A program made the translations under genes and the position numbers. Of a stretch of DNA of 64,000 nt, positions 1 through 42,625 are shown in pieces. The DNA is taken from positions 124,475-188,474 of the IMG/VR virus record IMGVR_UViG_3300045988_152007. One strand, given 5' to 3'. Each line of letters starts with the position of its first letter. Position 1 is the stretch's first letter. This stretch comes from a virus. Under the pieces are notes generated by a model that saw only the letters and a list, made by a program, of their open reading frames with translations, was not told where the DNA came from and ran no database searches.

Positions 1-2109
1 CTTGGTGTTTATCCTAAAAAAGATGCTACTGATAGTTGGCCAAGTAATAATAATTCTTCTAATGAAAATAATAATAATAATAATAAAAATGACAATTATA
101 AAGATGATAACACATTAGATCCGGGTTTTGGTATTCCTGCCTCTTGGTGGCGTAAAGGCCAAGGGACTGGAGATTTAGAAAATTACGGCATTATGCTAAT
201 ATCTAATACAAAAGAATTAGATCCAGGTTTTATGGTACCAGAGCTAGGTTCTACAGTGTTAGATCCAGATTTTATGTTACCACCAGATCAAGAAAATAAT
301 GCAAATAAAAATAATAATTCTTCTAATGATAAGTCTGATGATAATAATAATAATACAACGATTAATGAATCTAAAGAATATTATTTAACTATAATAAAAA
401 ATATAGATAATAAAAATATTTTAGGCTATTATGATAGCGAAGGCTAGTGGATTTAGGTTTACGAATTAACTGAAGAACTTTCATTAAGAAATATAGAAAA
501 TTTTTTAAATACTATTAAAATTAATTATTATATTAAAATTATTAAAGATATAAATTTTGATGAAAAAAATAAGGATTATGATTTTAGTTTTATTGATTCT
601 AATAATTTAATTTCTATAAATAATACTATTGTTGCTAGTTATAAATTAATTAGTTACAATGAATCTAAAAAGAAGACAGAATATAGTTATGTATTTCCTA
701 ATAATTATCCAGTAATAAAAAATAAAAATAATGAAACTGTTATTACTGAAGAAGAACACAACGATTTAGTTAAAAAATTATTAGAATATTATAAAACAAA
801 TAAAGATGATTTAACTTCAGATATTGAACTAATTTATAGTTATAAAAATATGGAAGAAATTCCTAAAGATGATTCATCTAAGCCAAATAAACCTGGCAAT
901 TCAGAAGATAATAATATACCTGGTCCTACTCCTAGAGATCCAAATTATGGAATTATGCCTTTAGATGTTTTAGATCCAGGTTTTACATTAAAACCCAATG
1001 AAGAGAATAATAATAAAGATAATACATCAAATGGAAATACATCGGGAGGAAGTAATTTATTGTTACCATTCTTAGATCCAGTAGATGGTAAAAAAGATTA
1101 GTTAAAAATCTTAGGTGATTAGGAAGATATAATAAAAAAAATTTTTATTTTGCGTGATGATGGTAATTATTCATTAAATGAAATTATTGAAGAAATTACT
1201 AAAGCTTATAATTCTAATATTCTTGATTTTTCTACTATTAATGATAATAATAAAATTAAAATTATTACATATACTCCTAAAGAACCTCCTTTTGATTATG
1301 AAGATAATTTTTATTTTACTTTAATTGGTACTCCTTGTAATGAATGGCGTGAAGAATTATTTAGACAAGCTTTATTAAATAATGAAAATGGCACTCAGAA
1401 AGGAGACTATGATGATGAATTATTAGCTAAAATAGATGGTGAATATCTGTGGCGTAAACAAATATTTAATCCTTAGAATGAAACTTGGCATGAAGAATGG
1501 CGGAATCAAATTGATTAGATTGAATCAAAAAATTCTTCTGAAAAAAATCAAAATGAAGAAATCATACCTGATACTTGGATTGGATGGAATCCTGCTATTT
1601 ATCTTGATCCTAGCTTAATAACATATTGGTTAGATTTTATTGATGTAGATTAGTTAGTATCTAGATATTCAGTTAATAAAATAGGTCGGCGTACTAAAGC
1701 ATTGACTAAAACTAATATGAGTCTTTTATATAAATTAGAAGTGCCTGATATCATATTTTTTGAAAATACTGGGGAAGCAGATTTAATTCAAAAGATAGAA
1801 GATTATACATTAAAAGGTTAGGCTTATTGTGCTTTAAAACCGGGGCAAATGAAATTATTTAGTTCTAGCGGAACAGGAAGTACGGCATTTGATTATATAA
1901 GAGAAATGTTATATTAGTATTTAATTTATAATTTAACTGTTACTATTAACTGTGCGCCAAGATATTATTTAGAACCTAATAATTTAATTTATATAAATGA
2001 TAGAAAAAGTAATATACAAGGGGAATTTGTTATAACTCAATATACTCTTCCTTTAACTTATAATGGAAATATGTCGATTACAACAAATGAAGCTTTAACA
2101 AGAGTATAA
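1..2109 (+). CDS. Large structural protein, truncated at its 5' end, with repeated LDPGF motifs. Probably a tail or baseplate component. It contains many in-frame TAG codons.
   Basis: One continuous frame runs through ORF-track pieces 193-447, 850-1101 and 1150-1476 and on to TAA at 2107-2109, once TAG is read as sense. A GGAGG Shine-Dalgarno for the next gene follows immediately. The C-terminal part is beta-rich. Confidence 0.5.
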
Positions 2110-2120
2110 GGAGGTAAATA

Positions 2121-2822
2121 ATGGGAATTCAATTTAAACAAATTGTTTATAATTTAGAGGACTATGGTGGTTCTGGTGGATTAGTTTCTACTAAATAGGG
2201 AGATTTATCTGAATTAGTATATAGTGCTGTATATCAGAATAATTTAAATGATTCTACTGAAACTACTACCAATGATGAAACAGATTATGAAAATAAAAAA
2301 ATAGATATTTTTGGAGTTAATATTTTAAAAGGCTTCAATAATGTAAAAAAAATAGGTATTTAGGCGCCCCCTGGTACTAAATTCACTTTTAATAAAGCAA
2401 CTACGCAAGATACTGGAGAATGGATTATGGTTGGACGTACTGGTATTTATGAACTTAATGATGATATTGTAATTAATTATTTAAGATTTCAACGTCCTTA
2501 GAATTATATTGTAAATAAAGAATTAAGTCAATAGTTATAGGCTACTGGAACTGGAATAATGAAAGTGGCAAGAGATATATTTTTATAGAAAATTAATGAA
2601 TTAGAAAAAACATTAGGTTAGGCTCCTGATCGCACTGAAGCTGGTTCAGAATATTGGACTGAATATAATAATGCTCATCAAAATTATATAACTTAGTATA
2701 AAAGTGGTTTAGGAATTTATTTAAAAGGTAAAGCAGGAGTATATGTACCTGATCCAACTATTGTAGATTTATATAATATAATTATAGACTTTACTTATGA
2801 AACATATGAAGGGGGAGACTAA
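2121..2822 (+). CDS. Hypothetical late or structural protein of about 233 aa, with about 8 in-frame TAG codons.
   Basis: GGAGGT Shine-Dalgarno 8 nt upstream of ATG 2121. The frame stays open to TAA 2820-2822 only if TAG is sense. Confidence 0.45.
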
Positions 2823-2825
2823 TAA

Positions 2826-5723
2826 ATGTATAGCTTTTATGGGGGACAAAAAGGGCAAGACTTTAAAATAACACGAATATTTGCCAATCGTGCTATTGAC
2901 ATGGTTGGAGATTTAAAAGCAAGATGGACTTCTCCTGTAAATGTTGGAGATTATGTTTTTATTAATTATGGTGATCCATCTTATATGAATGAAGAAACCT
3001 CCAACTATAATATTAATCTTCAGATAGATTTAAAAGATAGCGGAAAATCATATACTAATTCATTGTGGTAGAAAATCTATGTAGATAGAAATTTAACAGT
3101 TTCTCCAGATTTTCCTTAGAATGATAATAATATTTATATTTTCTTAAATTTAGAAGAAGATAATAAAGAAGAATATGGAGAATCTCTTCATGAAGTATCT
3201 GATTTAGAAAGTGAAGAATGTTTTGGTTTTGGATATCGTTTAATTGCTTGCGTAACTGGCGTTACTCCTCGTATTCAAGTATTTCATTAGACTATAGATA
3301 TTGAAGATGGAGATCCTTATGTTACTTTAGATTTAACCAATCCTGATACTCCTAAAATTAAATTTTATTTACAACGTGGATAGCGTATTGAAGAAGTATA
3401 TAAAAATATAGTTGGCTCTTAGGAAGATCCAAATGTTTATTTTAAAACTGAAGGAACTTATTTTGATAAAAATGGAAATATTAAGACAGCAACATTAACT
3501 AGGCCTCAATTAACTTTTGATTTGCCTAAAGCTCCAACATTTTTTTCTGGTTCTTTATTTGGATTAGGACCATTATCTTATTTTCATAATATGGGTAATT
3601 ATAAAACTTATGGATATCAAAATTATGATTATAAATATACAATTCGGGAAAATTAGGTTTCTATACTATCACGAATTTCGTATTATTTATTGCATATCCT
3701 AAAAGAAGATAAAATAATATATGATGAAAATGGGAATATTATTGATAATAAACATTTTTTCAATAATAATTTAAATGCAATATATACTTAGCCTGATGAA
3801 AGAGTTTTATTTAATCCTCAAAATAATTTAAAAATAACTAAATTATCTTAGCAATTATATACTTATTTAGTTGATAATTTTAAATTATAGCAAATTAAAA
3901 ATGAGTTAAAATATGAATGGTACTGGATAGATTCAGAATATAATCCAAGTAGCCAATAGAATTTATTTTATTTATTTAATGATATGTATCCTAGATCTTT
4001 GATTTAGGTTGATCAAATAATATATTCTTTATTTAATATTTTATTAAAGTTAATAAATAATAATAAAAAAGATGACATTAGTTCTGTATATTATTTTGAA
4101 AATAGTAGTATAGCTAATTATTGTTTATCAATATTAGCTGAATATGCTACATTAGGAGATCATTTTTATGATATAACTAATAATGGCTATAAAGCTGATT
4201 TCTATATAAATGAGCCAACTGGGAAAATTTATAGCTTATATGAGATAACTTCTTCTTAGATTACTGGCATTTATTTAGGGGCTATTACAGCACCGGCTCC
4301 ATTAGCTAAAACAGAATTAGTTGATTCTTTTATTAAAGATAAAGATAATAGTTACATTAAAAATTAGATTGTAGTTGAAAGTGGTATTTTAGAAGAAGAT
4401 AATATTGGTACTTATTAGGAAATTTTTAATTTTTCCATTCCTAAATATCCTGATATATCAATAAAAACTATAAATGTTAAAAATGAATAGACTTATAAAG
4501 TATCTAATATAAAACCTATAAGTAAAAATATGGAACAAATCGATTTAGAAACTCCTTTGCCTATCCATATCCTTACTCCTAAAAATTCTGGATTAACTGT
4601 TTCTATAGATACAATTAATAATAATATTGAAAAAGTAATAGGTAATAAAGAGAGTTATATTGGTCCTATTCTTTCTAAAAATGATTTATTTATTAATATT
4701 ACAGATAATTTAAGTGATTCTACACGTGGACATATTTTTTAGTATAAAAAAGATCCAGTCCAATCATTAGAAGATTAGGAGTTTTTATTTGATAATTGGG
4801 AAAAAATTGGTACTTTAACTGGTTTGCCTGGAATCCCATTAGCTAAAAAAATTATTAATATAACTGCTGTAGAACATTTATCAAATAATATTGTTTATGA
4901 AGGTTCTGAGGGCAATGGTAATAATGATTATATTTTTAATTACAATATTTTAAAAACATATTATGTAGATCATGTTAATGATGGATTAGAATTTATTATC
5001 AAACAAATATTAAATGGAACTAAATTAAATCAAGAAGCAATAAAAAATGCAGGTAGTAGCACTCCATAGTTAATAATTAATTTTGGAGATAATGCTGGGG
5101 CTAATTTGCCTGATTTAACAATTAATTCTGACAGTGGAGAAGTAATTCTTATTAATTTTTATAATCCTACATTAACTAGCAGTTATTGGGGACTTTATAT
5201 TCAAAATAATTGGGATTTAATATCTGTTTCAGGTAACAGCCAGGATTCTATTATTTCAATACAATAGAATCCTTAGCAAGAAATTAGTAAAAAAACTGCT
5301 TATTCTAGTTGGTATTTAGATACTCAATATTTAAACAATAATTTAGTTTGGAATAAATGGATTGGAATTACTACAAAAAATCTTGTAGATACTTCAATAT
5401 CTATTGATGGAATTTCAAAAACAAATATCCCAAAATTTACAGCTAAAGAAGGAGATAAAATAACAATTCATACACTTAGTAGGAATAAATCTACAACGGA
5501 AATAGGAGAAATAACTAGTAAAATTTTTTATAATAATACGTTGATGAAAGAATCTGCTAAATGTTAGGTTGCTCCGTCAGAAGGATTATGGGGATATGCT
5601 GAAGTAACTTATGAATTTAACTTAAAGAATGATATATCTATTAAAGTCATAAGTGAAAAATATCCAGATTCTTCTCCTTATGTTTTTGGGCAAAATGTTT
5701 ATATTACAGATTATTTAGATTAA
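2826..5723 (+). CDS. Large structural protein of about 965 aa, TAG-dense. Putatively a tail fibre or baseplate protein.
   Basis: ATG 2826 directly follows the previous stop. A single frame runs to TAA 5721-5723 and joins ORF-track fragments 2826-3071, 4530-4742 and 4824-5069 across more than 20 TAG codons. Confidence 0.5.
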
Positions 5724-5736
5724 GGAGGAATTTTAA

Positions 5737-6144
5737 ATGGATGCTCAATTAATTGCGCAAATATTTCAAATTTGTATTATTCCTTTACTTGGAATTTTAA
5801 CGACATTCTTAGTTGCTTGGATTAAATCTAAAAAAGATGCTTTAAAGCAACAAACAGATAGCGAATTAGCTAAAAAATATTTAGATATGCTTGATAATAC
5901 AATTACTGATTGTGTTATTGCAATGAATTAGACTTATGTTAATTCATTAAAACAGCAAGGAAAATTTGATGGCGAAGCGCAGAAAAAAGCATTTACTGAT
6001 GTTTATAATAAAGTAATTGCTATTTTAGGTCAAGACGCTATCGAATATTTGAATTCTGCTGTTGGAGATCTCAATGAATATATTTCTTCTAAAATTGAGA
6101 AAGAAGTTAATTCAAATAAAATTACTCCAACAGAAACAAAATAA
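5737..6144 (+). CDS. Small membrane protein with an N-terminal transmembrane helix and a hydrophilic tail. Holin-like candidate.
   Basis: AGGAGG Shine-Dalgarno before ATG 5737. The hydrophobic segment is IIPLLGILTTFLVAW. One in-frame TAG at 5929-5931. TAA at 6142-6144 is followed by a strong terminator. Confidence 0.4.
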
Positions 6145-6150
6145 TAAAAT

Positions 6151-6183
6151 GGGAGAACCAATGCGGTTCTCCCATTTTTTTTA
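6151..6183 (+). terminator. Rho-independent terminator.
   Basis: Perfect 9-bp stem GGGAGAACC/GGTTCTCCC with a 5-nt loop, followed by a T9 run. Confidence 0.75.
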
Positions 6184-6228
6184 TGCTTATTTATTATATT
6201 AAAATGCCCTAAATTTTTTCCCAAAAAT

Positions 6229-6280
6229 TTTGACAAAATTGGGAAATTATTTGACAATATTTTTTATATAAGTATAGAAA
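6229..6280 (+). promoter_or_regulatory. Sigma70-like promoter candidate with duplicated TTGACA -35 boxes and an AT-rich TATA region.
   Basis: TTGACA at 6229 and at 6251, followed by tatataagtataga, about 25 nt upstream of the 6306 start. Confidence 0.3.
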
Positions 6281-6305
6281 GAATAAATAAGAAAGGATTT
6301 TAGTT

Positions 6306-6737
6306 ATGAATTTATATCAAGGTTTTGGAAATAATCAAAGTTATTATCAACCACAAAGGACCAATACAATAATACCTCCGAGTTAGTAGCCATAGCCTGC
6401 TTTTATTGGACTAAAAGGTCGTCCAGTTTCTTCATTAGAAGAAGCAAGAGCTGCTGCTATTGATTTTGATGGTTCTGTATTTTTCTTTCCTGATTTGGCT
6501 AATAAAAGGATTTATACTAAGCAAATTAATTTAGATGGAACAGCATCTATGAATATGTATGAGTATAAAGAAGTCCCTACTGAAGCTTTTAATTCATCTA
6601 ATTTTGTTACTCGTTAGGAATTTGATGAAACATTAAATGATATTAAAGGCGCATTAAATATGATTGCTTAGTAGACTTAGCAATAGAAACAATAGCCAAA
6701 AGTGGAAGAATAGCCTAAATAGCAAATTAATTTTTAA
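6306..6737 (+). CDS. Hypothetical protein with a Gln(TAG)-rich tail.
   Basis: ATG 6306 with an AAAGGA Shine-Dalgarno. About 12 in-frame TAGs clustered at positions 27-31 and in the last 25 residues. TAA 6735-6737. Confidence 0.45.
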
Positions 6738-6750
6738 GGAGTAATAAGTT

Positions 6751-6987
6751 ATGCAAATAAATCCTATGTAGATTATTCAAATGATAAAAGGTGGGTCTAA
6801 TCCTCAATAGTTAATAATGTCATTTTTATAGCAATAGAATAATCCAATGGCAAATAATTTACTATAGATGGCATAGAATGGAAATATCAGTGGAATAGAA
6901 CAGATAGCGCGTAATATATGCGCATAGAAAGGGTTAGACTTTGATAAAGAATTTAATTCCTTTAAGCAATAGCTTGGGATTAAATAA
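6751..6987 (+). CDS. Small protein, extremely TAG-dense (about 10 of 78 codons).
   Basis: AAGGAG Shine-Dalgarno 9 nt upstream of ATG 6751. TAA 6985-6987. Confidence 0.4.
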
Positions 6988-7013
6988 TATTTTTATTAAA
7001 GGAGGACATTTAT

Positions 7014-8319: not shown

Positions 8320-8427
8320 TTATATAATCCTCCCGACATGAATTTGTCGCTCTTTCTTATTATAAATGAAAGAAAGAATTATATAATTGTATAAAATTGC
8401 CCGTCATTCCCAATTTAATTCATCCTA

Positions 8428-8910
8428 CTATGCTTTAAAATATGCAGTATATAAACATATAGCATCACAGACATCATCATTGGCGTCGATACCATACGTA
8501 TCTTTTACATATTTTATATCAAGAGGTTTAAGGTTTTCACGTTTAATGCCGCGGCCTGTTTTAATTCCTAAATTTTTTCGCCATTCACTAGCTTGCATAA
8601 ATTCTATGCTTTTGGAATTTATATTATCATTTACACTATGAGCGCCAAGGACTATAGATCCTTGAAGCCACATAAGTAATCGAGCAGTATCTGAATAACC
8701 ATAAGCTTCTGGATGAACATCTTCAGCAATTAATTTTTCTATATTATATTGTTTTACTAATTCTATAATTCCACTTTGTATCTTTTGAATACGACTTATA
8801 TTGTTAGAAGAAGATGCAGTAAGTAAACCATAAGTAATTAACTTACCTTTATCGTCTGATATAGCATATCCAGTAGATTTAGTGGATAAGTCTAAAAATA
8901 AAAAATTCAT
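8428..8910 (-). CDS. ruvC: RuvC-like Holliday junction resolvase.
   Basis: N-terminal FLDLSTKSTGYAI catalytic-Asp motif and an overall RuvC/RNase-H fold pattern. 160 aa. Confidence 0.75.
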   Translation of the reverse strand: MNFLFLDLSTKSTGYAISDDKGKLITYGLLTASSSNNISRIQKIQSGIIELVKQYNIEKLIAEDVHPEAYGYSDTARLLMWLQGSIVLGAHSVNDNINSKSIEFMQASEWRKNLGIKTGRGIKRENLKPLDIKYVKDTYGIDANDDVCDAICLYTAYFKA

Positions 8911-8952: not shown

Positions 8953-9501
8953 TTAATTATTAACGTCCTTACTGGTTGAACCAAATCCACCAATTCTTGT
9001 GCCTTCAGCCTTATCATCATCTGTAATAAGGTAGTTTCGAATAACGCCCTGACCGATAATATCTCCTTTGGCAATTTCAATATCAAAAGGAGAAAGATTA
9101 ATTAATTGGAAATAAATATGTCCTTCATTATCAGGATTGTTATAATAATCAGCATCAATAATGCCAACTCCATTAGCAAGGATAATCCAATGTTTTAAAG
9201 GTAAAGAAGAACGAACAGATAACTCAAGAAATTGACCATCTTCCATATGACATTTCATTCCAGTAGGAATAAGTGTAGGTTTTAGTTTAAGCTCTTTAGT
9301 AATTTTAGCCATATCATTTAATGAAATAATATTATTAGTGGCTGCACCATTTTTAAAAGCTTCTACGATATGCGTATATGAAGGAATTACAACATCTTCA
9401 GCAGATGCAAAGTCATAACCTGCACTATATTTCGTTTTTCGTTCTGGCATTGGTAAATTCCAATCATTATATTTACTTACCTTTTCAAAATAAATACTCA
9501 T
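8953..9501 (-). CDS. dut: dUTP pyrophosphatase.
   Basis: SAGYDF motif and a C-terminal GGFGSTSK motif, typical of trimeric dUTPases. Confidence 0.85.
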   Translation of the reverse strand: MSIYFEKVSKYNDWNLPMPERKTKYSAGYDFASAEDVVIPSYTHIVEAFKNGAATNNIISLNDMAKITKELKLKPTLIPTGMKCHMEDGQFLELSVRSSLPLKHWIILANGVGIIDADYYNNPDNEGHIYFQLINLSPFDIEIAKGDIIGQGVIRNYLITDDDKAEGTRIGGFGSTSKDVNN

Positions 9502-17500: not shown

Positions 17501-18568
17501 ATTAACCCAATATCTTTCTTGCGGATTATCACTCATTAATAAACTACATAAAATAGGATATTTTTCTGTACGTTCGAACCAGCCAGTTAATGATTGAGGA
17601 TAATCTAATACTTCTACTTTTGGAATTATTTGTTTTCTCTCAAGAGAAAAATCTTCAATTTTATTTTGAATTTCAAGAGTATTATTTAAAATTTCTTTAG
17701 CTATTTCTTCTGGCTGCTCTTCAATATCTAAATATATAAAACAAGGGGTAATTAAATCAAAAACTTCATCATAAGTCATTAAATGAGCAAATTCATAAAA
17801 TTTGTCAACTTCTCGTTCTCCATCTTTTGAATTAAGATAAGCCTTATGAATTGGTCTATCTTCTTTCGTTAAATAATGGCTATCAGTAGCAACTTCTACT
17901 TTAATTCCATATTTATGACCGATTTTATAAATCATATGGTTTACAAGTTTTTGATCTGCCGCAGTCGATGGAGCAATCTCTAAATAGAAATCTTCATCAA
18001 ATAAGTCTTGACAGAAAGTAAGAAAAGTATCTATTTGTTTTAAAATTTGATATAATTCATAATTATTCTCTTGTTCTTTATATTCTACAGCTTTTAAAAG
18101 ACAAGTACCTAATTCTCCACCAATACAGGCAGTAGTGGCAATTAAATGTCCCTTATATTTCTCTACTACTGATTTTAATTCATTCTTTAAAAGTGGAACA
18201 CGTTCCATTTTTCTATCAACATATAAATTTTGCCAAGCAATTGAGCTTAATTCTTTTAATGCTCGATATCCTATAGCATCTTTAGCAATTAAAATAAAAT
18301 GGTAATACTTTTGTCCTGTGCTTCTATCATCAGTTAAATAAATTTCATTGCCTAATGCTATTTTAAATTTTGGATATTTTTCTTTGATTTTTTTAGCATA
18401 TTGATTTACTGTCATATGAGCAGAAAGACTTTCGTGATCTGTGATAGCAATTCCCGAAAGTCCTAATTCAATAGCTTTATCAATTAAAGTTTCTGGCTTA
18501 TTTATACAATCCAGTAAACGGAGGTTCGAATATTCAGTATGATTATGACAATTAAAATAAGTGTTCAT
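14567..18568 (-). CDS. dnaE: DnaE-type (Pol III alpha-like) replicative DNA polymerase. 1333 aa, no TAG.
   Basis: N-terminal PHP motif CHNHTEYSNLRLLDC. Length and overall organisation fit a C-family polymerase. Confidence 0.75.
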   Translation of the reverse strand: MNTYFNCHNHTEYSNLRLLDCINKPETLIDKAIELGLSGIAITDHESLSAHMTVNQYAKKIKEKYPKFKIALGNEIYLTDDRSTGQKYYHFILIAKDAIGYRALKELSSIAWQNLYVDRKMERVPLLKNELKSVVEKYKGHLIATTACIGGELGTCLLKAVEYKEQENNYELYQILKQIDTFLTFCQDLFDEDFYLEIAPSTAADQKLVNHMIYKIGHKYGIKVEVATDSHYLTKEDRPIHKAYLNSKDGEREVDKFYEFAHLMTYDEVFDLITPCFIYLDIEEQPEEIAKEILNNTLEIQNKIEDFSLERKQIIPKVEVLDYPQSLTGWFERTEKYPILCSLLMSDNPQERYWVNECYISLLEKMYNKSISDDKLNIYLDRLEIEADIIKDIGEKLDDCLFAYFNTFKHYIDLFWDCGSIVGPGRGSATGFLSNYLLGITQLDPIRWGLPYWRFLNKERAELPDIDIDLAPSKRPAIFEAIRKERGELGLIQVATFGTETTKSAILTACRGYRSDKYPNGINVDEAQYMSSLIPQERGFLWEINDVIYGNEEKDRKPVKTFVNKVNEYPGLLDIIIYIGGIVNKRSSHASGVILYGDDPYDTAAFMRTPSGSLITCWDLHQAEAAGDTKYDFLVTEASDKIITCYELLLKAKEIPDLSLRDFYNQYIHPEVIDTTDQKIWDHLATGDVLDCFQFSTGVGLAIAKKLKPQDPMEMTAANAMMRLMSEKGKESQQDRFYRIQHQGIQAFDQEMKQHHLPQELIDKFHKHCDKYYGCCPLQEQMMEILMDIAHFTLGEANSARKVVAKKQMAKIPQLKEQVFSRFDNKNDAEYFWETAVAPQLGYAFSLNHSLPYSFVAIQMIYFVIHYNPIYWNCACLIVNSGSLEDNSEEEIVDIYDPEADDLANGVTFEDLPDKKSKVRKTNSTDYGKIAKAIGDIRKAGIQVSLADINKSEFSFIPDVENNQILFGLKGMLNVGDDVVKTIIENRPYKSPRDFLNKVNPNKQAMISLIKGGAFDHMMDRKLCMVWYIWETCDKKKNLNLQNLATLMKFNLLPADTLERQQALHIYEFTRYLKQICKYDKVYYKLDDRAIDFLQKIDKDDLIQSKDSNFYLNIKDWNDKVYQGWMDVYRKQIADNKEEILNKLNEIIFKDDWKKYCPKVNYSAWEMEVLCFYYHEHELAQVNQSKYGFADFYSLPEDPVVERSFVKAGKTINIYYLSKLCGTCIAKNKNKSIVTILTPTGVVNVKFRKEYFTLFDKQISQKQPDGTKKIIEKSWFNRGNMIVVQGIRSGDDFIAKKYASTPGHQLYHIDTIQSNGDLILRSERYQGVAEDEE

Positions 18569-19134
18569 TTTTTTCTTTCCTGCCTCAGCCTACCTGTTCT
18601 TTGTCGTTCTAAATAATTATGTTTCTTTTTATTTTCTTCAGTAAAAACTTCGGGCATAATAGTTTTATGATTTTGACCTAACCATATTGCTTGAAACCCT
18701 CTCTTTGTAATTTTATCTTTAAATAGCTCATAAGCATCAGATACACAGATATTACAATTATTATACATTGTTCTAATTTGAATAACTTCTTCTTTAGTTA
18801 ATTTAGAATTTGTTTTTACAGCACTTACATTATACCCGCCATCTCCGCCTGGTGTTTCATTATACCCATTATTAAAAGAGTCATAATAGATAATCCAGTA
18901 TTGTTCTCTATTATTCCCAAATTTATTATAAGTTTCTTCATCCATTGGCTCGATAATTTCAAAATTAAAATTATCTATGCCATATTTTCTAAAAGCTTTA
19001 TATAAATTTTTATCCCATTCTTTGGAGTCATTATAATGAGAAGTATGATAAATCCATCTATCTTCTATATCTTTAGATTTACCTATATAAATTTTATTAT
19101 TCTATTTATTTGTTATTTTATAAATGCCAAACAT
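18565..19134 (-). CDS. GIY-YIG homing endonuclease with 1 TAG.
   Basis: FGIYKITNK...KIYIGKSKDIEDRW plus conserved Arg, Glu and Asn. Its stop overlaps the dnaE start (ATGA). AGGAGGG Shine-Dalgarno. Confidence 0.75.
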
Positions 19135-19246
19135 AAGCATCCCTCCTCATTATATTATGGAAATCAACTTATTTGGAATGCATAAAATTGTCCTTATGGC
19201 AACCAAAATAAGTATTCAATTCCCTACCTCCTTAATTTATTATTAT

Positions 19247-30570: not shown

Positions 30571-31215
30571 TTAATTAATCAATAATTCTTGTGCATAAGG
30601 GAGTGTTTCAATCCATTTACAGAATTCACGCCATTCAGGGAGACGATGATTTTTACGCTGTTTATAAATATTTCTTAAACAACGATAATTTGTTGTCATA
30701 CGTGCCGTTAAAGTAAATCCAGCAGGATTAGAATAAAGAATCTCAAGATATAACTTTTTTAATAATTCAGATATTCTTGTGGCTTCAACTGGTTTATTCT
30801 CTTTAACATATTTTTCTTTTAATGCTACTTGAGTATTATAATAATCAACTTTTTCTTTCATAATCTTGATAATTCTATCATCAACATATTCATTGTATGC
30901 TTCATCAAGATTAAATTTAGTAATTCTATGCATTGTGGATTGAGAACTTACAAATTCTAAGAATCTATAACGCTCTGCTTCAACCCACATTTTATTAGAA
31001 CAAGTTAAATCAAAATTAACTCGAATACCAGTCAAAAACTAACCATGTGCTTGGTTATCTTTTACGCAAGCATTAATAAGAGTATTACAACGTTTAAAAT
31101 CATTTTCATTTAAATCTCTATCCTATTGGCTTTCAATGTCTACTGACATAGGATAGCCAGCAGCAATAATTGATTTATCTAAATCATAAATACAAACATT
31201 ACTTACAATAGTCAT
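30571..31215 (-). CDS. Hypothetical protein with 2 TAGs.
   Basis: ORF 30571-31035 extended upstream through TAGs. Confidence 0.4.
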
Positions 31216-31494: not shown

Positions 31495-31507
31495 ATTTTA
31501 TTCTCCT

Positions 31508-32505
31508 TATTTAATACTATAACCAAATTCTTTTGCTTGATAAAATTCCTACCAATAATCTTCTCGACTATCTAAAAGAGATTTATCACATTCTTCAAGA
31601 ATCTCAAAAGTAAATTGTTCCGGTCCTAATTCATACATAGCCGGATAAAGTTTATTACGAGTTGGTGCTTCTGCTCCAACTCCACGCTTTATATGTTGTT
31701 TCCAACGGTCAGCAATATTAACTGCCTAACCTATATAGCATTTTTGACTTTCTATATTGGTAATCTTATAAATACCAGTACGGATACCTTGACCAATTAC
31801 TCGACCAATTAAATCAGTATAAGATTTTTCATAATAAACTTTCCAAATAACTTTATTAATTGGTTCAGCACTTCTTAAATAAGGAATAATTGAACGAAGT
31901 TTTTTAATTTCTTCAATATCAATTTCACTTAAATTAAGTTTATAAAACTATTCTTTTTGTTTTACTTCTTCAGCACGTTTATTAGCTTCAACAATAGCAT
32001 TTTGTTTTGCTTTTGCTTCTACTAATTCTTGAGATATTTTATTTAATTCTTCCTATTTTTGAATAATTAAATTAGTATATTCTTTTGTGCTTTCTTCAAT
32101 AGCTTTCAAATACTCTTGTTGATAATTATCTTCTGCCTATTGGTATTTCTATGCCATCTATTCAGCAGACTAAGCAAGTTTTTCAGAAGCTAATTCATTA
32201 GCCTTTTGGCAATACATTTCAGCATTTAAACTTGCTTGCTAATAATTATCATCGAGGATTTTCTTTTTATCTTTTAAAAAATCTATTTCTTTTATTAATG
32301 AATTATAATCATTATTTAAATTAGAGATTTTTTCATTTAACTAATTTTGAGCTTGAAGAAGTCTTTGACTTTCTTCAATGATTTTTGCGTTTTCTTCTCT
32401 TGTTTGAGTATCTAATTCAATTGTGGCTTTTAATTTATTATGCAGTCCTAAATATAAAAGACCAGCACCAAGAAGAAAACATATTACGCAATAAATTACA
32501 GTCAT
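31508..32505 (-). CDS. Membrane-anchored coiled-coil protein with a C-terminal GIY-YIG nuclease domain of T5orf172 type, and a DUF4041-like architecture. About 9 TAGs.
   Basis: N-terminal transmembrane helix VIYCVICFLLGAGLLYLGL, about 200 aa of coiled coil, then GIYKITNIESQKCYIG(Q)AVNIADRW...N...E. Confidence 0.55.
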
Positions 32506-32520
32506 ATCTAAAAAGAAAAA

Positions 32521-32542
32521 GGGCAAATTACTTTGCCCTTTT
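32521..32542 (-). terminator. Intrinsic terminator.
   Basis: GGGCAAA-ttac-TTTGCCC, followed on the - strand by TTTTTCTTTTT. Confidence 0.7.
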
Positions 32543-32557
32543 AAATTTTATATTAAA

Positions 32558-32824
32558 TTACTCAACGTCTTCTGCGTCAAGGTCAAGAGCAAGACCAGCT
32601 TCAGTAAGAGAGAGGAACTTTACAGCCTTATGGGTACCATCATCAAGTTCAACCTCAGCAGGGGTACGAACGCCAAAGCCCTTGCGCTGAATAGCAGAAG
32701 TAAAGATGCCATCAACAGTACGCTTCTCAAGACCGAGAGCCTCAGCAACATCAGCAGCGGTGACCTATTCACCATTAACACTCTTTAGATAACTAAAAAC
32801 TTTCTTAGTATTTTCCTTCATCAT
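32558..32824 (-). CDS. Small (88 aa) GC-rich protein, a putative DNA-binding protein. Monocistronic, with a strong Shine-Dalgarno and its own terminator.
   Basis: AAGGAG 9 nt upstream of ATGATG. About 50% GC against roughly 28% around it. One in-frame TAG. Confidence 0.55.
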
Positions 32825-33120: not shown

Positions 33121-33177
33121 TAGAAAAATTTTTCTTCCTTATTTACGAATATATTATATTATTTTTTTTGAACTTTG

Positions 33178-34386
33178 TCAAAATATTGTATTCAATAAAC
33201 AATCCTGTGGATTTTTATCATCACGAAATCCTTTAAAGAAAGCATGACGTAATGTATGTTCCTTACTGTCTTTTTCCATACATTGTAAAGAAACTACTCT
33301 ATTAAGATAATTTTCAGGATGTTTTGCAAAATCATCACGTAATTCATCAGTTAATCCTGAAGAAACTGTTCCAATTTCTACAATTTCACCATTGTCGTTA
33401 TAAGCTCCAATATGAATTGCAGTTTTCCATCCATAAAAATATCCTTTAGTAACTGGGGTATAATATCTTTCACTATCATTTACTAATTGAGGTCCCCAAT
33501 TCGTATTACTACGATTTTGAGTATATTTATAATAATAATTACCACTTAATAATTGAGGATTAACCCAACCCGCAAAACAATGATCTTCTTCAAAACAATC
33601 ATAAAAACTTGGTTCTTTTACTTCCCAATATTGCCAACTCTGGATTTCTTTACCTTCATATTCTTTAGTCGCATCATCAAAACCAATAAGAATTGCATCA
33701 AGATAATCAATTTTTTTAATTTTAATAGACGACCAAGCTGGTCTTTTATCAGGAGCATATTGAGCTGTTTTTAATTTAAGAACAACGCCTTCTTCTCCGT
33801 CTTTAAGAGCTTGGGCAGTAAAGTCATAAATATCTTCATATACTGCTTCAGCTAATTCCATAAAAGAATATTGACTAAAATTAAATTTTTCCCAAATTTT
33901 TCGTAAAATCTTATAACGAGTTAATGCGCCGTAAGACTGTAAATTTATTCCATTATATTTAATTACATCGTGTAAATAAAAATGAACTGGATTATCTTTT
34001 TGGCGATTAACAGCTTCATCAGCTAAACAACCCATTACTCGTGTTACATCTTTAGACGTTTTACCTGGATAATAAATTTCACCAATTAATATTGTTCCTT
34101 TTGGAACAATTTGCAAAGCTTCTTTAATATGAGGAACATTTGCTAATTTTTCAGTAAGAATACCAGTATTTTTACTGACATTCCTACTGAAAAGATACAT
34201 ATGATTATTAGTTTTTTCAAACTCATACCAATATCCATCTTTTTTTAATTCAGCAAAATAATTCCCATTAATACACATTTCTGGAAACATATTTTCTTTT
34301 CCATCAGGAAGTTTCCAAATTTTCATTGCTTGAATACACTCGGCTTCAGGAGCATATTTATCAATAAGTTCTTGAGAGAAAGACAT
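33178..34386 (-). CDS. ATP-dependent DNA ligase.
   Basis: AELKKDGY adenylation motif I (KxDG) and nucleotidyltransferase plus OB-fold domain layout. 402 aa, no TAG. Confidence 0.85.
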   Translation of the reverse strand: MSFSQELIDKYAPEAECIQAMKIWKLPDGKENMFPEMCINGNYFAELKKDGYWYEFEKTNNHMYLFSRNVSKNTGILTEKLANVPHIKEALQIVPKGTILIGEIYYPGKTSKDVTRVMGCLADEAVNRQKDNPVHFYLHDVIKYNGINLQSYGALTRYKILRKIWEKFNFSQYSFMELAEAVYEDIYDFTAQALKDGEEGVVLKLKTAQYAPDKRPAWSSIKIKKIDYLDAILIGFDDATKEYEGKEIQSWQYWEVKEPSFYDCFEEDHCFAGWVNPQLLSGNYYYKYTQNRSNTNWGPQLVNDSERYYTPVTKGYFYGWKTAIHIGAYNDNGEIVEIGTVSSGLTDELRDDFAKHPENYLNRVVSLQCMEKDSKEHTLRHAFFKGFRDDKNPQDCLLNTIF

Positions 34387-41332: not shown

Positions 41333-41542
41333 TTATTTATCACTCATAATACGATAAAGAACTTGAATCATTTCTTCACGAGTCATAAACTTTTTATACA
41401 TTGTATGACCTTTACCATCACCTTTAATGTAACCATTATCTTCAGCCCAAGTACGTGCATCAGCAGACCAAGCGCTAGGATCTTTTGCGGCAAGTTCAGT
41501 CAAATAATTAGTCATAAGTTCATTAAATCTTTCTTGAGTCAT
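41333..41542 (-). CDS. Small protein in frame with, and separated only by a TAG from, the endolysin. Either a separate gene or the endolysin C-terminal domain.
   Basis: AGGAGG then ATG 41542. The same frame as the endolysin continues through TAG 41558-41560. Confidence 0.45.
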   Translation of the reverse strand: MTQERFNELMTNYLTELAAKDPSAWSADARTWAEDNGYIKGDGKGHTMYKKFMTREEMIQVLYRIMSDK

Positions 41543-41557
41543 ATCTTCATCTTCCTC

Positions 41558-42625
41558 CTATACTCCTAATAATTCATTTACTTTTTCGGCAATTTCATAG
41601 TGTTTATTATATAAATATTCGCCAGGACAAGACTTATTAGCAAACCATCTATGAACTGTCATATTCTATTCTTCTGGATGGCCGATTAAGTTTTTATCAG
41701 CTTTCCATTTTAATGATTTAATATTATTACGTTTACAAATATCAACAAGCAATTTAATTAAAGAATTAAATGCTGCATCAGTTACTTTATAAGGCGAAGT
41801 AGTGTCACTAGCGACTTCAATAGTAATAGCACGATTATCATTAGCTCCATTAGAAGAACACCATGAACGATCTTTTTCTTCAACGTACATACCAATTCTA
41901 CCATCAGGGCCAATACCATAATTAGAAGAAGCTTGTCTTGATGTTGGTGCAAATACCTCTCCAAGAGCTTCAACAGAACATTGTCCAACTACACAGTGAA
42001 TCGTAACAGTATCAATTACATGGTTACGAGGACTTGTCTTATTAGGACTAATTTTAGTATAATTTACTAATGGACTATTAGTTTTACCATAACCATATCC
42101 AGCCATAGGATCATTATCTATCGTATCACTATCTTTGACTGCTGGATTATAAATAAATCCAAGAAATTTATAACCGGCGCCAGCGCCCCAATTACCATTT
42201 CCTTTTTTACGTGTTGCATTCCAGAAGGGATTCTTACTGCCCCAACCACTTTCAGATGTAATAATTTCAGTAGGACTTATTACTTTTTCTACAATAGCTA
42301 CGTGGCCAACACCATCGCTACCTTTTTTAGTAGCTCCTCCTTGCCAAACCATACAAGCTCCAAGTTTAGGCACTTGTCCAACTGGAATACCAGTATTATT
42401 ATATTCCATAAAACGTTCAGCATTAACAGGGCTTAAATATTTACAATAACCCCAATTACCAATTTCATTAAAACGACCATAGGCATAACCTACACAGTTT
42501 GATAATACATCACATTTACTATCTGTTGGATTGCCTTTAATAGCATATGAATAACCGCCATTAGCTCTTGTGATATAATATTTATTACCTGCTTCTGGTC
42601 GTGTGGTTCTCATTTTAAAAGCCAT
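41558..42625 (-). CDS. Endolysin: N-terminal CHAP peptidase plus C-terminal N-acetylmuramoyl-L-alanine amidase (Amidase_2/PGRP).
   Basis: CHAP Cys and His (CDVLSNCVGYAYGRF ... GHVAIVE). Amidase_2 motifs AITIEVAS and VHRWFANKSCPGEY. The amidase zinc-binding end lies past TAG 41663-41665, so that TAG must be read as sense. Confidence 0.8.

What the first reader, a model, noticed from the sequence alone, without database searches (positions are those of the whole stretch)
31508..32505. Membrane-anchored coiled-coil protein ending in a GIY-YIG (T5orf172-like) nuclease domain
The reconstructed 330-aa or so protein has an N-terminal transmembrane helix, about 200 aa of heptad-repeat coiled coil, and then a clear GIY-YIG module (GIYKITNIESQKCYIGQAVNIADRW...E). 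This architecture resembles bacterial DUF4041 plus T5orf172 proteins implicated in defence or genome surveillance. A membrane-tethered nuclease is not a standard homing endonuclease. It is distinct from the canonical GIY-YIG homing endonuclease at 18565-19134, which is inserted upstream of dnaE.
Basis: partly seen in the sequence, partly recalled or inferred. Interest (0 to 1): 0.5.

Follow-up and report, generated by a model that had tools for sequence, protein, structure and literature searches.

The report
Membrane-anchored GIY-YIG nuclease of a phage
A gut phage that reads the TAG stop codon as glutamine carries a conserved gene for a DNA-cutting enzyme held on a long helical stalk at the inner face of the cell membrane; it resembles the recently described bacterial defence nuclease SNIPE in layout but belongs to a different, uncharacterised protein family.

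Summary
The 332-codon frame (window 31507-32505, minus strand) is open only if its ten in-frame TAG codons are read as glutamine. The window is a TAG-recoded (code 15) phage of about 190 kb.

**What the protein is**
- It has an N-terminal membrane helix, a helical stalk of about 160 residues without proline or glycine, a conserved two-helix linker, and a C-terminal GIY-YIG nuclease domain.
- The nuclease domain is of the I-TevI type and all catalytic residues are invariant.

**What it is not**
- The DUF4041/T5orf172 (SNIPE-type) assignment is not supported; only the canonical GIY-YIG profile matches.
- It is not a homing endonuclease. It has no DNA-binding tail, and it keeps one fixed position between gyrase/ligase and the YorF-DnaB-RecJ replication genes in 16 of the 22 related loci fetched that carry a full-length or near-full-length homologue.

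**Family and regulation**
- It represents a large uncharacterised family (484 clusters at 50% identity).
- Every full-length member I could place lies on a phage or phage-sized metagenomic contig.
- A terminator hairpin sits just before the ATG, and there is no ribosome-binding site. This is conserved across relatives.

**Function**
My best mechanistic guess, by inference only, is a phage-encoded analogue of SNIPE that cuts DNA at the membrane, for example DNA of superinfecting phages. A role in replication or recombination is the main rival.

The parts
31507..32505 (-). Coding sequence of the 332-aa protein: ATG 32505, ten in-frame TAG codons read as Gln, stop TAA 31509-31507
   Evidence: The exact protein is P0001 in the public collection.
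32443..32505 (-). Residues 1-21, the N-terminal membrane helix (MTVIYCVICFLLGAGLLYLGL). It is followed by HNKLK. Predicted topology is N-terminus out, C-terminus in the cytoplasm.
   Evidence: Hydrophobicity and positive-inside analysis on 67 of 67 members. The segment is part of helix 2-184 in the model.
31954..32442 (-). Residues 22-184, the helical (coiled-coil-like) stalk. It is poorly conserved in sequence but conserved in length. It carries eight of the ten TAG codons if codon 186 at its end is counted.
   Evidence: Model helix 2-184 with pLDDT mostly above 95. No Pro or Gly, hydrophobic period about 3.5-3.6. The GIY motif starts at a median of residue 241.5, interquartile range 236-248, across the family.
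31777..31944 (-). Residues 188-243, a conserved two-helix linker (FY..L...D..EI..LR...PYLR..EP.NKVIWKVYYEKP..DLIGRV.G). It matches no Pfam family.
   Evidence: Nearly invariant Y188, I200, K218, I220, Y224, R235. Helices 194-205 and 214-236. No Pfam match.
31510..31776 (-). Residues 244-332, the GIY-YIG catalytic domain of the I-TevI type. The protein ends about 10 residues after the domain, so there is no DNA-binding tail.
   Evidence: PF01541 36.7 bits. TIGR01453 62.4 bits, covering only profile positions 2-87 of 215. Foldseek to 1mk0/1ln0 with TM 0.80-0.82. Invariant G244 I245 Y246 Y257 G259 R267 H271 E315, which align with I-TevI Y6, Y17, R27, H31 and E75.
32517..32542 (-). Intrinsic-terminator-like hairpin (11 pairs) with a T-run. 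It ends 12 nt before the ATG and no Shine-Dalgarno sequence lies between. It follows the 88-aa gene.
   Evidence: The same arrangement, with different stem sequences, is present in 12 related loci.
31503..31508 (-). AAGGAG Shine-Dalgarno sequence of the downstream 93-aa gene (ATG 31496). It overlaps the stop codon of the nuclease gene.
   Evidence: Sequence read. The gene call agrees with L001-L003.
33153..33181 (-). Perfect sigma-70 consensus match (TTGACA-17-TATAAT). It is the nearest strong promoter-like site upstream of the 88-aa gene and the nuclease gene.
   Evidence: a consensus match only.

Best explanation
**Shown**
- The gene encodes a single-pass membrane protein.
- A short N-terminal helix anchors it. 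An uninterrupted helix of about 160 residues follows, up to about 25 nm long if fully extended.
- That stalk carries a small conserved linker and an I-TevI-type GIY-YIG nuclease domain with an intact catalytic set.
- It belongs to a large family. In the main clade the gene keeps a fixed position in the DNA-replication module of large, mostly gut-derived phages. Many of these phages read TAG as Gln.

**Inferred**
- The Lys/Arg cluster after the helix places the nuclease in the cytoplasm.
- The catalytic domain was recruited from the homing-endonuclease pool of these phages. It lost the sequence-reading tail and was fused to a membrane stalk.
- The tether therefore replaces sequence specificity with spatial specificity. 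The enzyme can reach only DNA that comes close to the membrane.
- The most likely such DNA is DNA being injected by a second phage into an already infected cell. This would be superinfection exclusion by cleavage, the same logic as the bacterial SNIPE nuclease.
- The phage's own replicating DNA would be spared because it is not at the membrane.
- A parallel coiled coil would bring two nickase domains together to make a double-strand break.
- Expression looks throttled. The start codon lies directly behind a terminator, there is no ribosome-binding site, and ten amber codons require the phage's suppressor system.
For: **Architecture and active site:**

**Family size and conservation:** 484 clusters at 50% identity with E < 1e-30, most of them 300-360 aa.

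**Fixed position:** the gene lies between gyrB/gyrA-ligase-88aa and 93aa-214aa-TrmB-YorF-AAA_24-YorH-DnaB-RecJ in L005-L016, L026, L036, L038 and L039. It lies directly after gyrA in phage Phass-1.

**Phage origin:** every full-length relative found in the species-genome collection lies on a metagenome-assembled contig, many of 120-180 kb, binned to unrelated taxa. That is what mis-binned phage genomes look like.

**Origin of the nuclease domain:** it is 43% identical to the window's own mobile GIY-YIG gene.

**Parallels with SNIPE:**
- SNIPE has an N-terminal membrane helix, an elongated middle and a C-terminal GIY-YIG domain in the cytoplasm. Removing its membrane helix makes it toxic, and it cuts phage DNA during injection (PMC13190303).
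- The N-terminal parts of some family members weakly match ZapG-like and DivIC profiles. The SNIPE paper reports FtsB, PilO and PspB likenesses for SNIPE N-termini.

**Throttled expression:**
Against: - No experiment and no homology link this family to SNIPE.
- Its place as a conserved gene inside the replication module is unlike the usual accessory, fast-evolving exclusion genes.
- It diverges at about the same rate as its neighbours: 44-47% identity, against 40-68% for gyrase, ligase and DnaB in the same relatives.
- There is essentially no extracytoplasmic segment and no variable adapter domain that could find an injection site.
- The amber-codon share of Gln codons is 0.36, closer to the structural genes (0.41-0.58) than to the amber-free DnaE, gyrase and ligase genes. 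If amber codons delay translation, the protein is not made early, when exclusion would be most useful.
- Oligomeric state, and whether the stalk is extended or folded back, were not determined.
Confidence: 0.38

Rival explanations
1. It is a membrane-located DNA-processing enzyme of the phage's own replication and recombination. It would nick or cut phage DNA, or replication intermediates, at a membrane-bound replication site. That would create ends for the neighbouring RecJ-like exonuclease and AAA_24 (Sak4-like) recombinase to start recombination-dependent replication or to process concatemers.
For: - The gene has a fixed position among gyrase, ligase, RNase H, YorF, AAA_24, DnaB, RecJ and DnaE across relatives that are only 27-68% identical.
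- In a second phage clade without this gene order it still lies among UvrD-like helicase, phosphoesterase and ThyX-like genes.
- Its divergence rate is like that of replication proteins.
- Its amber-codon share is similar to that of RecJ and NrdD.
- From general knowledge, phi29 uses a membrane-anchored coiled-coil DNA-binding protein (p16.7) to organise replication at the membrane.
Against: - No known phage replisome needs a membrane-tethered GIY-YIG nuclease.
- More distant relatives with the same replisome genes lack the gene, for example L028, which has no homologue between gyrA and AAA_24.
- A RuvC-like resolvase is already encoded at 8404-8910.
Confidence: 0.27
2. It is a host-takeover nuclease that degrades host DNA, or unmodified DNA in general, in the manner of the T4 GIY-YIG enzyme endonuclease II. 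The phage genome would be protected by a base modification or by a DNA-coating protein.
For: - The catalytic set is intact and there is no sequence-reading domain.
- Nucleotide-metabolism genes lie nearby: NrdD/G, an ORF at 8953-9501 that I read as dUTPase-like (not profile-tested), and a diverged ThyX-like 214-aa protein two genes downstream. These could belong to a modification pathway.
- The very conserved, apparently highly expressed 88-aa neighbour has an unknown role.
Against: - A membrane tether is counter-productive for digesting a nucleoid.
- Similarity to T4 endonuclease II is negligible (Foldseek E 0.95).
- No evidence for DNA modification was obtained.
Confidence: 0.13
3. It is an atypical free-standing homing endonuclease, a selfish mobile gene.
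For: The best profile and structure matches are to homing endonucleases (TIGR01453, PHROG homing-endonuclease families, I-TevI). These phage genomes carry many mobile GIY-YIG genes.
Against: - The catalytic domain is C-terminal, not N-terminal.
- There is no DNA-binding domain; TIGR01453 is matched only over positions 2-87 of 215.
- The position is fixed and the gene is inherited vertically across many relatives. True homing-endonuclease homologues in the same genomes move around.
- The membrane helix is conserved in 67 of 67 members.
Confidence: 0.04
4. It is a bona fide member of a bacterial defence family (SNIPE/PD-lambda-1 or Uzume) that the phage carries as cargo.
For: The PADLOC UzuA profile is matched by 46 of 67 members, best E 1.6e-10. 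The layout resembles SNIPE.
Against: - For the window protein the UzuA match covers only the GIY-YIG part (profile positions 184-275 of 278).
- There is no DUF4041 or T5orf172 match, and no PD-Lambda-1 model is among the listed PADLOC families.
- No full-length member was found in a bacterial chromosome context.
Confidence: 0.06

Closest known systems
SNIPE (E. coli membrane-bound nuclease that cleaves phage DNA during injection; Nature 2026, PMC13190303)
   Same: - Single membrane helix near the N-terminus.
- Elongated helical middle.
- GIY-YIG-superfamily nuclease at the C-terminus, facing the cytoplasm.
- The layout suggests that location, not sequence, decides which DNA is cut.
   Different: - No detectable sequence relationship outside the nuclease superfamily.
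- DUF4041, SNIPE's DNA- and tape-measure-binding domain, is absent. A different 50-residue linker takes its place.
- The nuclease is of the I-TevI type.
- The protein is smaller: 332 aa, whereas SNIPE's catalytic Glu is residue 414.
- It is encoded by phages in a replication module, not by bacteria.
- Its function is untested.
I-TevI and related GIY-YIG homing endonucleases (TIGR01453, PF01541)
   Same: The catalytic domain matches in sequence (31-32% identity) and in fold (TM 0.8). All catalytic residues are present: Y, Y, R, H, E.
   Different: - The domain order is reversed.
- There is no linker or DNA-binding domain.
- A membrane anchor and a stalk are added.
- The gene is not mobile.
Uzume (UzuA), a single-gene GIY-YIG defence system
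   Same: It has a C-terminal GIY-YIG domain and a similar overall length (profile of 278 positions). The profile is matched by 46 of 67 family members.
   Different: For the window protein only the nuclease part aligns. The N-terminal 180 profile positions are not matched there. UzuA architecture and mechanism could not be examined with the tools at hand.
phi29 p16.7 and ATP synthase subunit b (membrane helix plus long coiled-coil stalk)
   Same: An N-terminal membrane helix is followed by a long helical stalk that holds a functional head away from the membrane. ATP synthase b is weakly matched by the family profile.
   Different: This is an analogy of shape only. The head here is a nuclease.

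Membership tests
GIY-YIG nuclease superfamily (PF01541, I-TevI-like catalytic domain) | Profile score above the curated cut-off | tested here: met
   PF01541 scores 36.7 bits against a cut-off of 22.6. It matches 67 of 67 relatives.
GIY-YIG nuclease superfamily (PF01541, I-TevI-like catalytic domain) | GIY and YIG motifs plus catalytic Arg, His, Glu (I-TevI Y6, Y17, R27, H31, E75) and Asn90 | tested here: met
   Y246, Y257, R267, H271 and E315 are invariant in 67 sequences and align with the I-TevI residues. The Asn90 position is Ser330 in this protein and Asn in many relatives.
GIY-YIG nuclease superfamily (PF01541, I-TevI-like catalytic domain) | Three-stranded sheet with flanking helices, the fold of the I-TevI catalytic domain | tested here: met
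   Foldseek to 1mk0/1ln0 gives E 2e-6, TM 0.80-0.82 and rmsd 1.9-2.2 Angstrom, on a model with pLDDT 92.
GIY-YIG homing endonucleases (I-TevI / Seg / TIGR01453) | N-terminal catalytic domain joined to a C-terminal DNA-binding region | tested here: not met
   The catalytic domain occupies residues 244-332 and the protein ends there. TIGR01453 is matched only over positions 2-87 of 215.
GIY-YIG homing endonucleases (I-TevI / Seg / TIGR01453) | Sporadic, mobile distribution among related genomes | tested here: not met
   The gene holds the same position in 16 syntenic loci. Homologues of the true mobile gene at 18565-19140 occupy different sites, including sites inside gyrB and dnaB.
SNIPE / DUF4041-T5orf172 proteins | DUF4041 (PF13250) central domain | tested here: not met
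   No match in the protein at E <= 1. The profile is not among the families reported for 67 relatives at E <= 0.01. No match in four linker-plus-nuclease fragments at E <= 10.
SNIPE / DUF4041-T5orf172 proteins | T5orf172-type (PF10544) nuclease domain, or a match to the PD-Lambda-1 defence model | tested here: not met
   Only PF01541 and SegE_GIY-YIG are matched. PD-Lambda-1 is not among the PADLOC families listed for the 67 members; the first 25 of 34 families are shown. Equating PD-Lambda-1 with SNIPE is my recollection, not a tool result.
SNIPE / DUF4041-T5orf172 proteins | Membrane helix near the N-terminus with the nuclease in the cytoplasm | tested here: met
   This is a prediction only. 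The hydrophobic N-terminal window is present in 67 of 67 members, and Lys/Arg lie on the C-terminal side.
SNIPE / DUF4041-T5orf172 proteins | Cleaves phage DNA during injection; protects the cell | not testable with these tools
   This needs infection assays.
Uzume (UzuA) | Full-length match to the UzuA profile | tested here: not met
   For the window protein only profile positions 184-275 of 278 are matched (E 3e-7). The profile is matched by 46 of 67 members, best E 1.6e-10.
TAG-to-Gln recoded (code 15) phage gene | In-frame TAG codons at positions where relatives have Gln; frame otherwise open | tested here: met
   The related phage Phass-1 carries tRNA-Sup-CTA genes about 400 nt downstream of its homologue. 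No tRNA gene lies in this window.

The most novel reading that the evidence does not exclude
Phages have independently built their own SNIPE-like weapon. A homing-endonuclease catalytic domain was stripped of its DNA-reading tail and hung on a membrane stalk of roughly 25 nm. It would cut any DNA entering an already infected cell. The gene is kept in one fixed place across a large, abundant group of gut phages. It is switched on only through terminator read-through and amber suppression, so that it cannot meet the phage's own incoming genome.
Probability: 0.3. Interest if true: 0.75.

Novelty: new variant of a known kind. Interest (0 to 1): 0.55.

Why it matters
Membrane tethering as a way to give a non-specific nuclease self/non-self discrimination was shown only recently, for one bacterial family (SNIPE). 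This protein is a second, unrelated family with the same layout. It is encoded by phages themselves and is extremely common in human-gut metagenomes; the 120 best database hits alone are all 98-100% identical variants.

If it excludes competing phages, it would be a new class of phage-phage warfare gene. It would also be a clear case of a selfish homing-endonuclease domain being domesticated.

If instead it serves replication, it would point to a membrane-bound step in DNA metabolism of large Firmicutes-type phages.

Either way the family is uncharacterised and small. It can be tested directly with the assays already published for SNIPE.

Tried and rejected
- **DUF4041/T5orf172 membership.** I scanned the protein, 67 relatives and four C-terminal halves against Pfam at permissive thresholds, and against PADLOC. 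Neither profile matched, so I rejected it.
- **Pseudogene or chance ORF.** Rejected. All internal stops are TAG, the frame has no TAA or TGA in 332 codons (P about 5e-10), and there are hundreds of full-length homologues.
- **Cultured-phage homologue.** tblastn of three family members against 50,697 phage records found only the uncultured phage Phass-1 beyond the nuclease domain. Megablast of the region found nothing.
- **Bacterial chromosomal or defence-island context.** The species-genome scan gave full-length hits only on metagenome-assembled contigs that look like phage genomes. That scan used a single peptide pattern, so it is not exhaustive.
- **Conserved pairing with a ThyX-like gene across clades.** The ThyX-like neighbours in the two clades are not detectably related by BLAST, so I dropped the idea.
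- **Identity of the neighbours.** The 88-aa and 93-aa proteins gave no informative Pfam, PHROG or PDB sequence match.
- **Other attempts.** The AlphaFold-database fold library was not available. One literature search for 'Uzume/UzuA' returned only irrelevant papers. I could not obtain a SNIPE or UzuA sequence, so no profile-profile or structure-structure comparison with them was possible.
Full report
**1. What is in the sequence**

Under the standard bacterial code the region holds only a 61-aa ORF that starts with a hydrophobic segment. Translating the minus strand in the frame of ATG 32505 gives a continuous protein-like sequence interrupted ten times. All ten interruptions are TAG, and the frame closes at TAA 31509-31507.

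The window as a whole behaves the same way. Many long frames open up when TAG is read as sense. The total length of ORFs of 100 aa or more rises from 18,038 to 25,162 aa. Structural genes at 193-7000 carry many TAG codons. DnaE, GyrA, GyrB and the ligase carry none.

At this base composition, 332 codons free of TAA and TGA have a chance probability of about 5e-10. The ten TAG positions fall in alignment columns as rich in Gln as the columns of the protein's CAA-Gln codons (0.26 and 0.21, against 0.06 overall). TAG-260 is the Gln of the YIGQ motif, which is Gln in 66 of 67 relatives. Relatives whose genes contain no in-frame TAG, or only a terminal one, also have Gln there.

The Gln-substituted 332-aa protein is present, residue for residue, in the public protein collection on contigs of 185-191 kb. 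No tRNA gene lies in this window. The related phage Phass-1 is classified in the 'Caudoviricetes code 15 clade'. It has two tRNA-Sup-CTA genes about 400 nt downstream of its homologue (PMC10607447). The gene is therefore real, and the window is part of a TAG-to-Gln recoded phage of about 190 kb with 29% G+C.

**2. Anatomy**

- **Model.** AlphaFold2 on a 67-sequence alignment gives a confident model (mean pLDDT 92.4). It has one helix over residues 2-184, with a confidence dip around 160-190. Two short helices follow (194-205 and 214-236), then an alpha/beta domain over 244-321.
- **Membrane helix.** Residues 1-21 form the most hydrophobic 19-residue window of the protein. The same holds for all 67 aligned relatives (median Kyte-Doolittle score 2.5). 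A median of three Lys/Arg lie in the next 12 residues and none lie before the helix. By the positive-inside rule this is a reverse signal anchor, with almost nothing outside the cell and the rest in the cytoplasm.
- **Stalk.** It has no Pro or Gly, is rich in Glu, Lys, Gln and Ala, and has a hydrophobic periodicity of 3.5-3.6 residues. Its sequence is poorly conserved but its length is kept. The GIY motif begins at a median of residue 241.5, with an interquartile range of 236-248.
- **Linker.** Residues 188-243 are strongly conserved (Y188, I200, K218, I220, Y224, R235) and match nothing in Pfam.
- **Nuclease.** The C-terminal domain passes the Pfam GIY-YIG threshold (36.7 against 22.6 bits) and the NCBIfam group-I-intron endonuclease threshold (62.4 against 56.05 bits), but only over that model's catalytic part, positions 2-87 of 215. 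Its closest solved structure is the I-TevI catalytic domain (Foldseek E 2e-6, TM 0.80-0.82, rmsd about 2 Angstrom, 31-32% identity).
- **Catalytic residues.** G244, I245, Y246, Y257, G259, R267, H271 and E315 are invariant in 67 sequences. They align with I-TevI Y6, Y17, R27, H31 and E75. The protein stops about ten residues after the domain, so there is no DNA-binding tail.

**3. The family and its context**

A search of 1.84 billion cluster representatives found 484 clusters at E < 1e-30. Most are 300-360 aa and aligned end to end. The sequences inspected all share the same four-part layout.

In the species-genome collection, every full-length relative lies on a metagenome-assembled contig, many of 120-180 kb. 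These contigs are binned to unrelated taxa (Clostridia, 'Tenericutes', Melainabacteria, even Methanobrevibacter), which is what mis-binned phage genomes look like. The number of in-frame TAG codons in these homologues ranges from 0 to 16, so the family spans standard-code and recoded phages.

The gene order around the gene is strikingly constant. Upstream are RNase H, GyrB, GyrA, a DNA ligase (ATP- or NAD-dependent) and an 88-90-aa protein. Downstream are a protein of about 90 aa, one of about 214 aa, a TrmB-like regulator, YorF, AAA_24, YorH, DnaB, RecJ and DnaE. This holds in L001-L003, L005-L016, L026, L036, L038 and L039, at protein identities from 33 to 68%.

In Phass-1 the homologue follows gyrA directly. 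In a second clade (L017, L018, L022) and in L034 it sits among UvrD-like helicase, phosphoesterase, ThyX-like, RNase H and ligase genes, which are again DNA-metabolism genes.

Homologues of the window's bona fide mobile GIY-YIG gene (18565-19140) behave differently. They appear at different sites in different genomes, including inside gyrB and dnaB. The two nuclease domains are 43% identical. That fits recruitment of a homing-endonuclease catalytic domain into a fixed cellular role. More distant relatives with the same replisome genes lack the gene (L028), so it is conserved within a clade rather than universal. Among 50,697 deposited phage genomes only Phass-1 has it.

**4. Regulation signals**

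A 26-nt intrinsic-terminator-like hairpin (32542-32517) with a T-run ends 12 nt before the ATG. No Shine-Dalgarno sequence lies in between. The downstream gene, by contrast, has a perfect AAGGAG that overlaps the nuclease gene's stop codon.

The same arrangement recurs in 12 syntenic relatives: a stable hairpin of -15 to -23 kcal/mol with a different stem sequence, then a T-run, then the ATG within about 5-15 nt. Eleven of these have no Shine-Dalgarno sequence. L015 has a GAGGAG in front of the ATG, and L008 has no comparable hairpin. The non-syntenic clade has ordinary Shine-Dalgarno sequences and no hairpin.

The hairpin closes the unit of the 88-aa gene, which lies downstream of a perfect sigma-70 consensus match at 33181-33153. 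I infer that the nuclease is made only from read-through transcripts and is poorly translated.

In addition, TAG makes up 0.36 of its Gln codons. That is close to the structural genes (0.41-0.58) and to RecJ (0.58). It is far from DnaE, GyrA/B and the ligase, which have none. If amber codons delay translation until the phage's suppressor is active, as proposed for recoded phages (bioRxiv 10.1101/2021.08.26.457843), only a 54-residue membrane peptide could be made before that point.

**5. What it most likely does**

These points are shown:
- an intact, selectively maintained GIY-YIG nuclease;
- no sequence-reading domain;
- a permanent attachment to a membrane anchor through a long stalk;
- phage-encoded;
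- positionally fixed among DNA-metabolism genes.

The only experimentally understood protein with this layout is SNIPE. It has an N-terminal membrane helix, a central DUF4041 and a C-terminal GIY-YIG domain in the cytoplasm. Its membrane anchoring prevents cleavage of the cell's own DNA, and it cuts phage DNA as it is injected (PMC13190303).

By analogy, I consider a phage-encoded exclusion nuclease that cuts DNA entering an already infected cell the most coherent explanation of the tether (confidence about 0.38).

The main rival is a membrane-sited role in the phage's own replication or recombination (about 0.27). That rival is favoured by the conserved position, the ordinary divergence rate and the lack of any adapter domain. 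Host-DNA degradation (about 0.13), a selfish homing endonuclease (about 0.04) and true membership of a bacterial defence family (about 0.06) are less likely, for the reasons given under the rivals.

**6. Comparison with known families**

- **GIY-YIG superfamily, I-TevI type.** It is a member.
- **Homing endonucleases.** It fails the defining features: the domain order is wrong, there is no DNA-binding region and the gene is not mobile.
- **SNIPE/DUF4041-T5orf172 group.** It fails the sequence-defined features. DUF4041 and T5orf172 were not matched at any threshold tried, and no PD-Lambda-1 model is among the PADLOC families listed. It shares the layout and predicted topology.
- **Uzume (UzuA).** For the window protein the profile is matched only over the nuclease part.

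I file it as a new variant of a known kind. It is a second, apparently independent family of membrane-anchored GIY-YIG nucleases, this one belonging to phages.

**7. Limits**

Everything about topology, stalk geometry, oligomeric state, activity, timing and function is prediction or inference. I could not obtain SNIPE or UzuA sequences for profile-profile or structural comparison. The genome-collection scan relied on a single peptide pattern. The AlphaFold-database fold library was unavailable.

Noticed in passing
window 52176-54665 (-) and 55244-56782 (-): The 829-aa protein matches Major Vault Protein domains (MVP_shoulder 5.7e-20, Vault_3 4e-9). It lies about 0.6 kb from a 512-aa DUF2828/DUF7788 protein. 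Both genes have no TAG and use CAG rather than CAA for Gln (27:1 and 12:1, the reverse of the rest of the window). Both lie in the window's most G+C-rich stretch (0.34-0.37). They look like an atypical or acquired block.
   Followed up: partly
window 32558-32824 (-), with promoter-like site 33153-33181 and hairpin 32517-32542: This 88-aa protein has an acidic tail. It is 74-80% identical in most relatives whose neighbouring proteins are only 40-60% identical. It is flanked by a perfect sigma-70 consensus match and a strong terminator, so it is probably highly expressed. No informative Pfam, PHROG or PDB match was found. It is adjacent to the membrane nuclease gene in most of the syntenic loci.
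   Followed up: partly
window 32505-32545 and loci L005-L016, L026, L038: The start codon of the nuclease gene lies 5-15 nt behind a terminator hairpin, with no Shine-Dalgarno sequence. Twelve relatives keep the hairpin with different stem sequences, and eleven of them also lack a Shine-Dalgarno sequence. How the gene is translated at all is unexplained.
   Followed up: partly
window 18565-19140 (-); L003 4723-5412 and 16296-16973; L010 1931-2425: Free-standing GIY-YIG homing-endonuclease genes occupy different sites in closely related genomes. In this window the gene overlaps the dnaE start. In relatives they split gyrB and dnaB.
   Followed up: partly
window 8000-44000 (-), replication module: Amber-codon use divides the DNA-metabolism genes into two sets. 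DnaE, GyrA, GyrB, ligase, RNase H and NrdG have no TAG. In RecJ, NrdD and the membrane nuclease, and in PhoH and a radical-SAM protein just beyond the module, TAG makes up 0.27-0.58 of Gln codons. This may mark two translation phases.
   Followed up: no
window 30571-31215 (-): This 214-aa protein is conserved two genes downstream of the nuclease gene (phrog_6721, E 2.5e-55). It has a sub-threshold ThyX match (PF02511, 17.5 bits against a cut-off of 24.8). It may be a diverged nucleotide-modifying enzyme.
   Followed up: no
window 47385-48455 (-) and 59113-60249 (-): A flotillin/SPFH-like protein and an S-layer-homology (SLH) domain protein are encoded by the phage. The SLH protein, together with the CHAP/Amidase_2 lysin at 41333-42625, points to a Firmicutes-type host envelope.
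   Followed up: no
L004 (phage Phass-1, OQ749652) 5470-6447: The deposited annotation splits the Phass-1 homologue into a 46-aa and a 144-aa 'hypothetical protein'. Read with TAG as Gln it is one full-length membrane-anchored GIY-YIG protein. Two tRNA-Sup-CTA genes lie about 400 nt downstream.
   Followed up: yes
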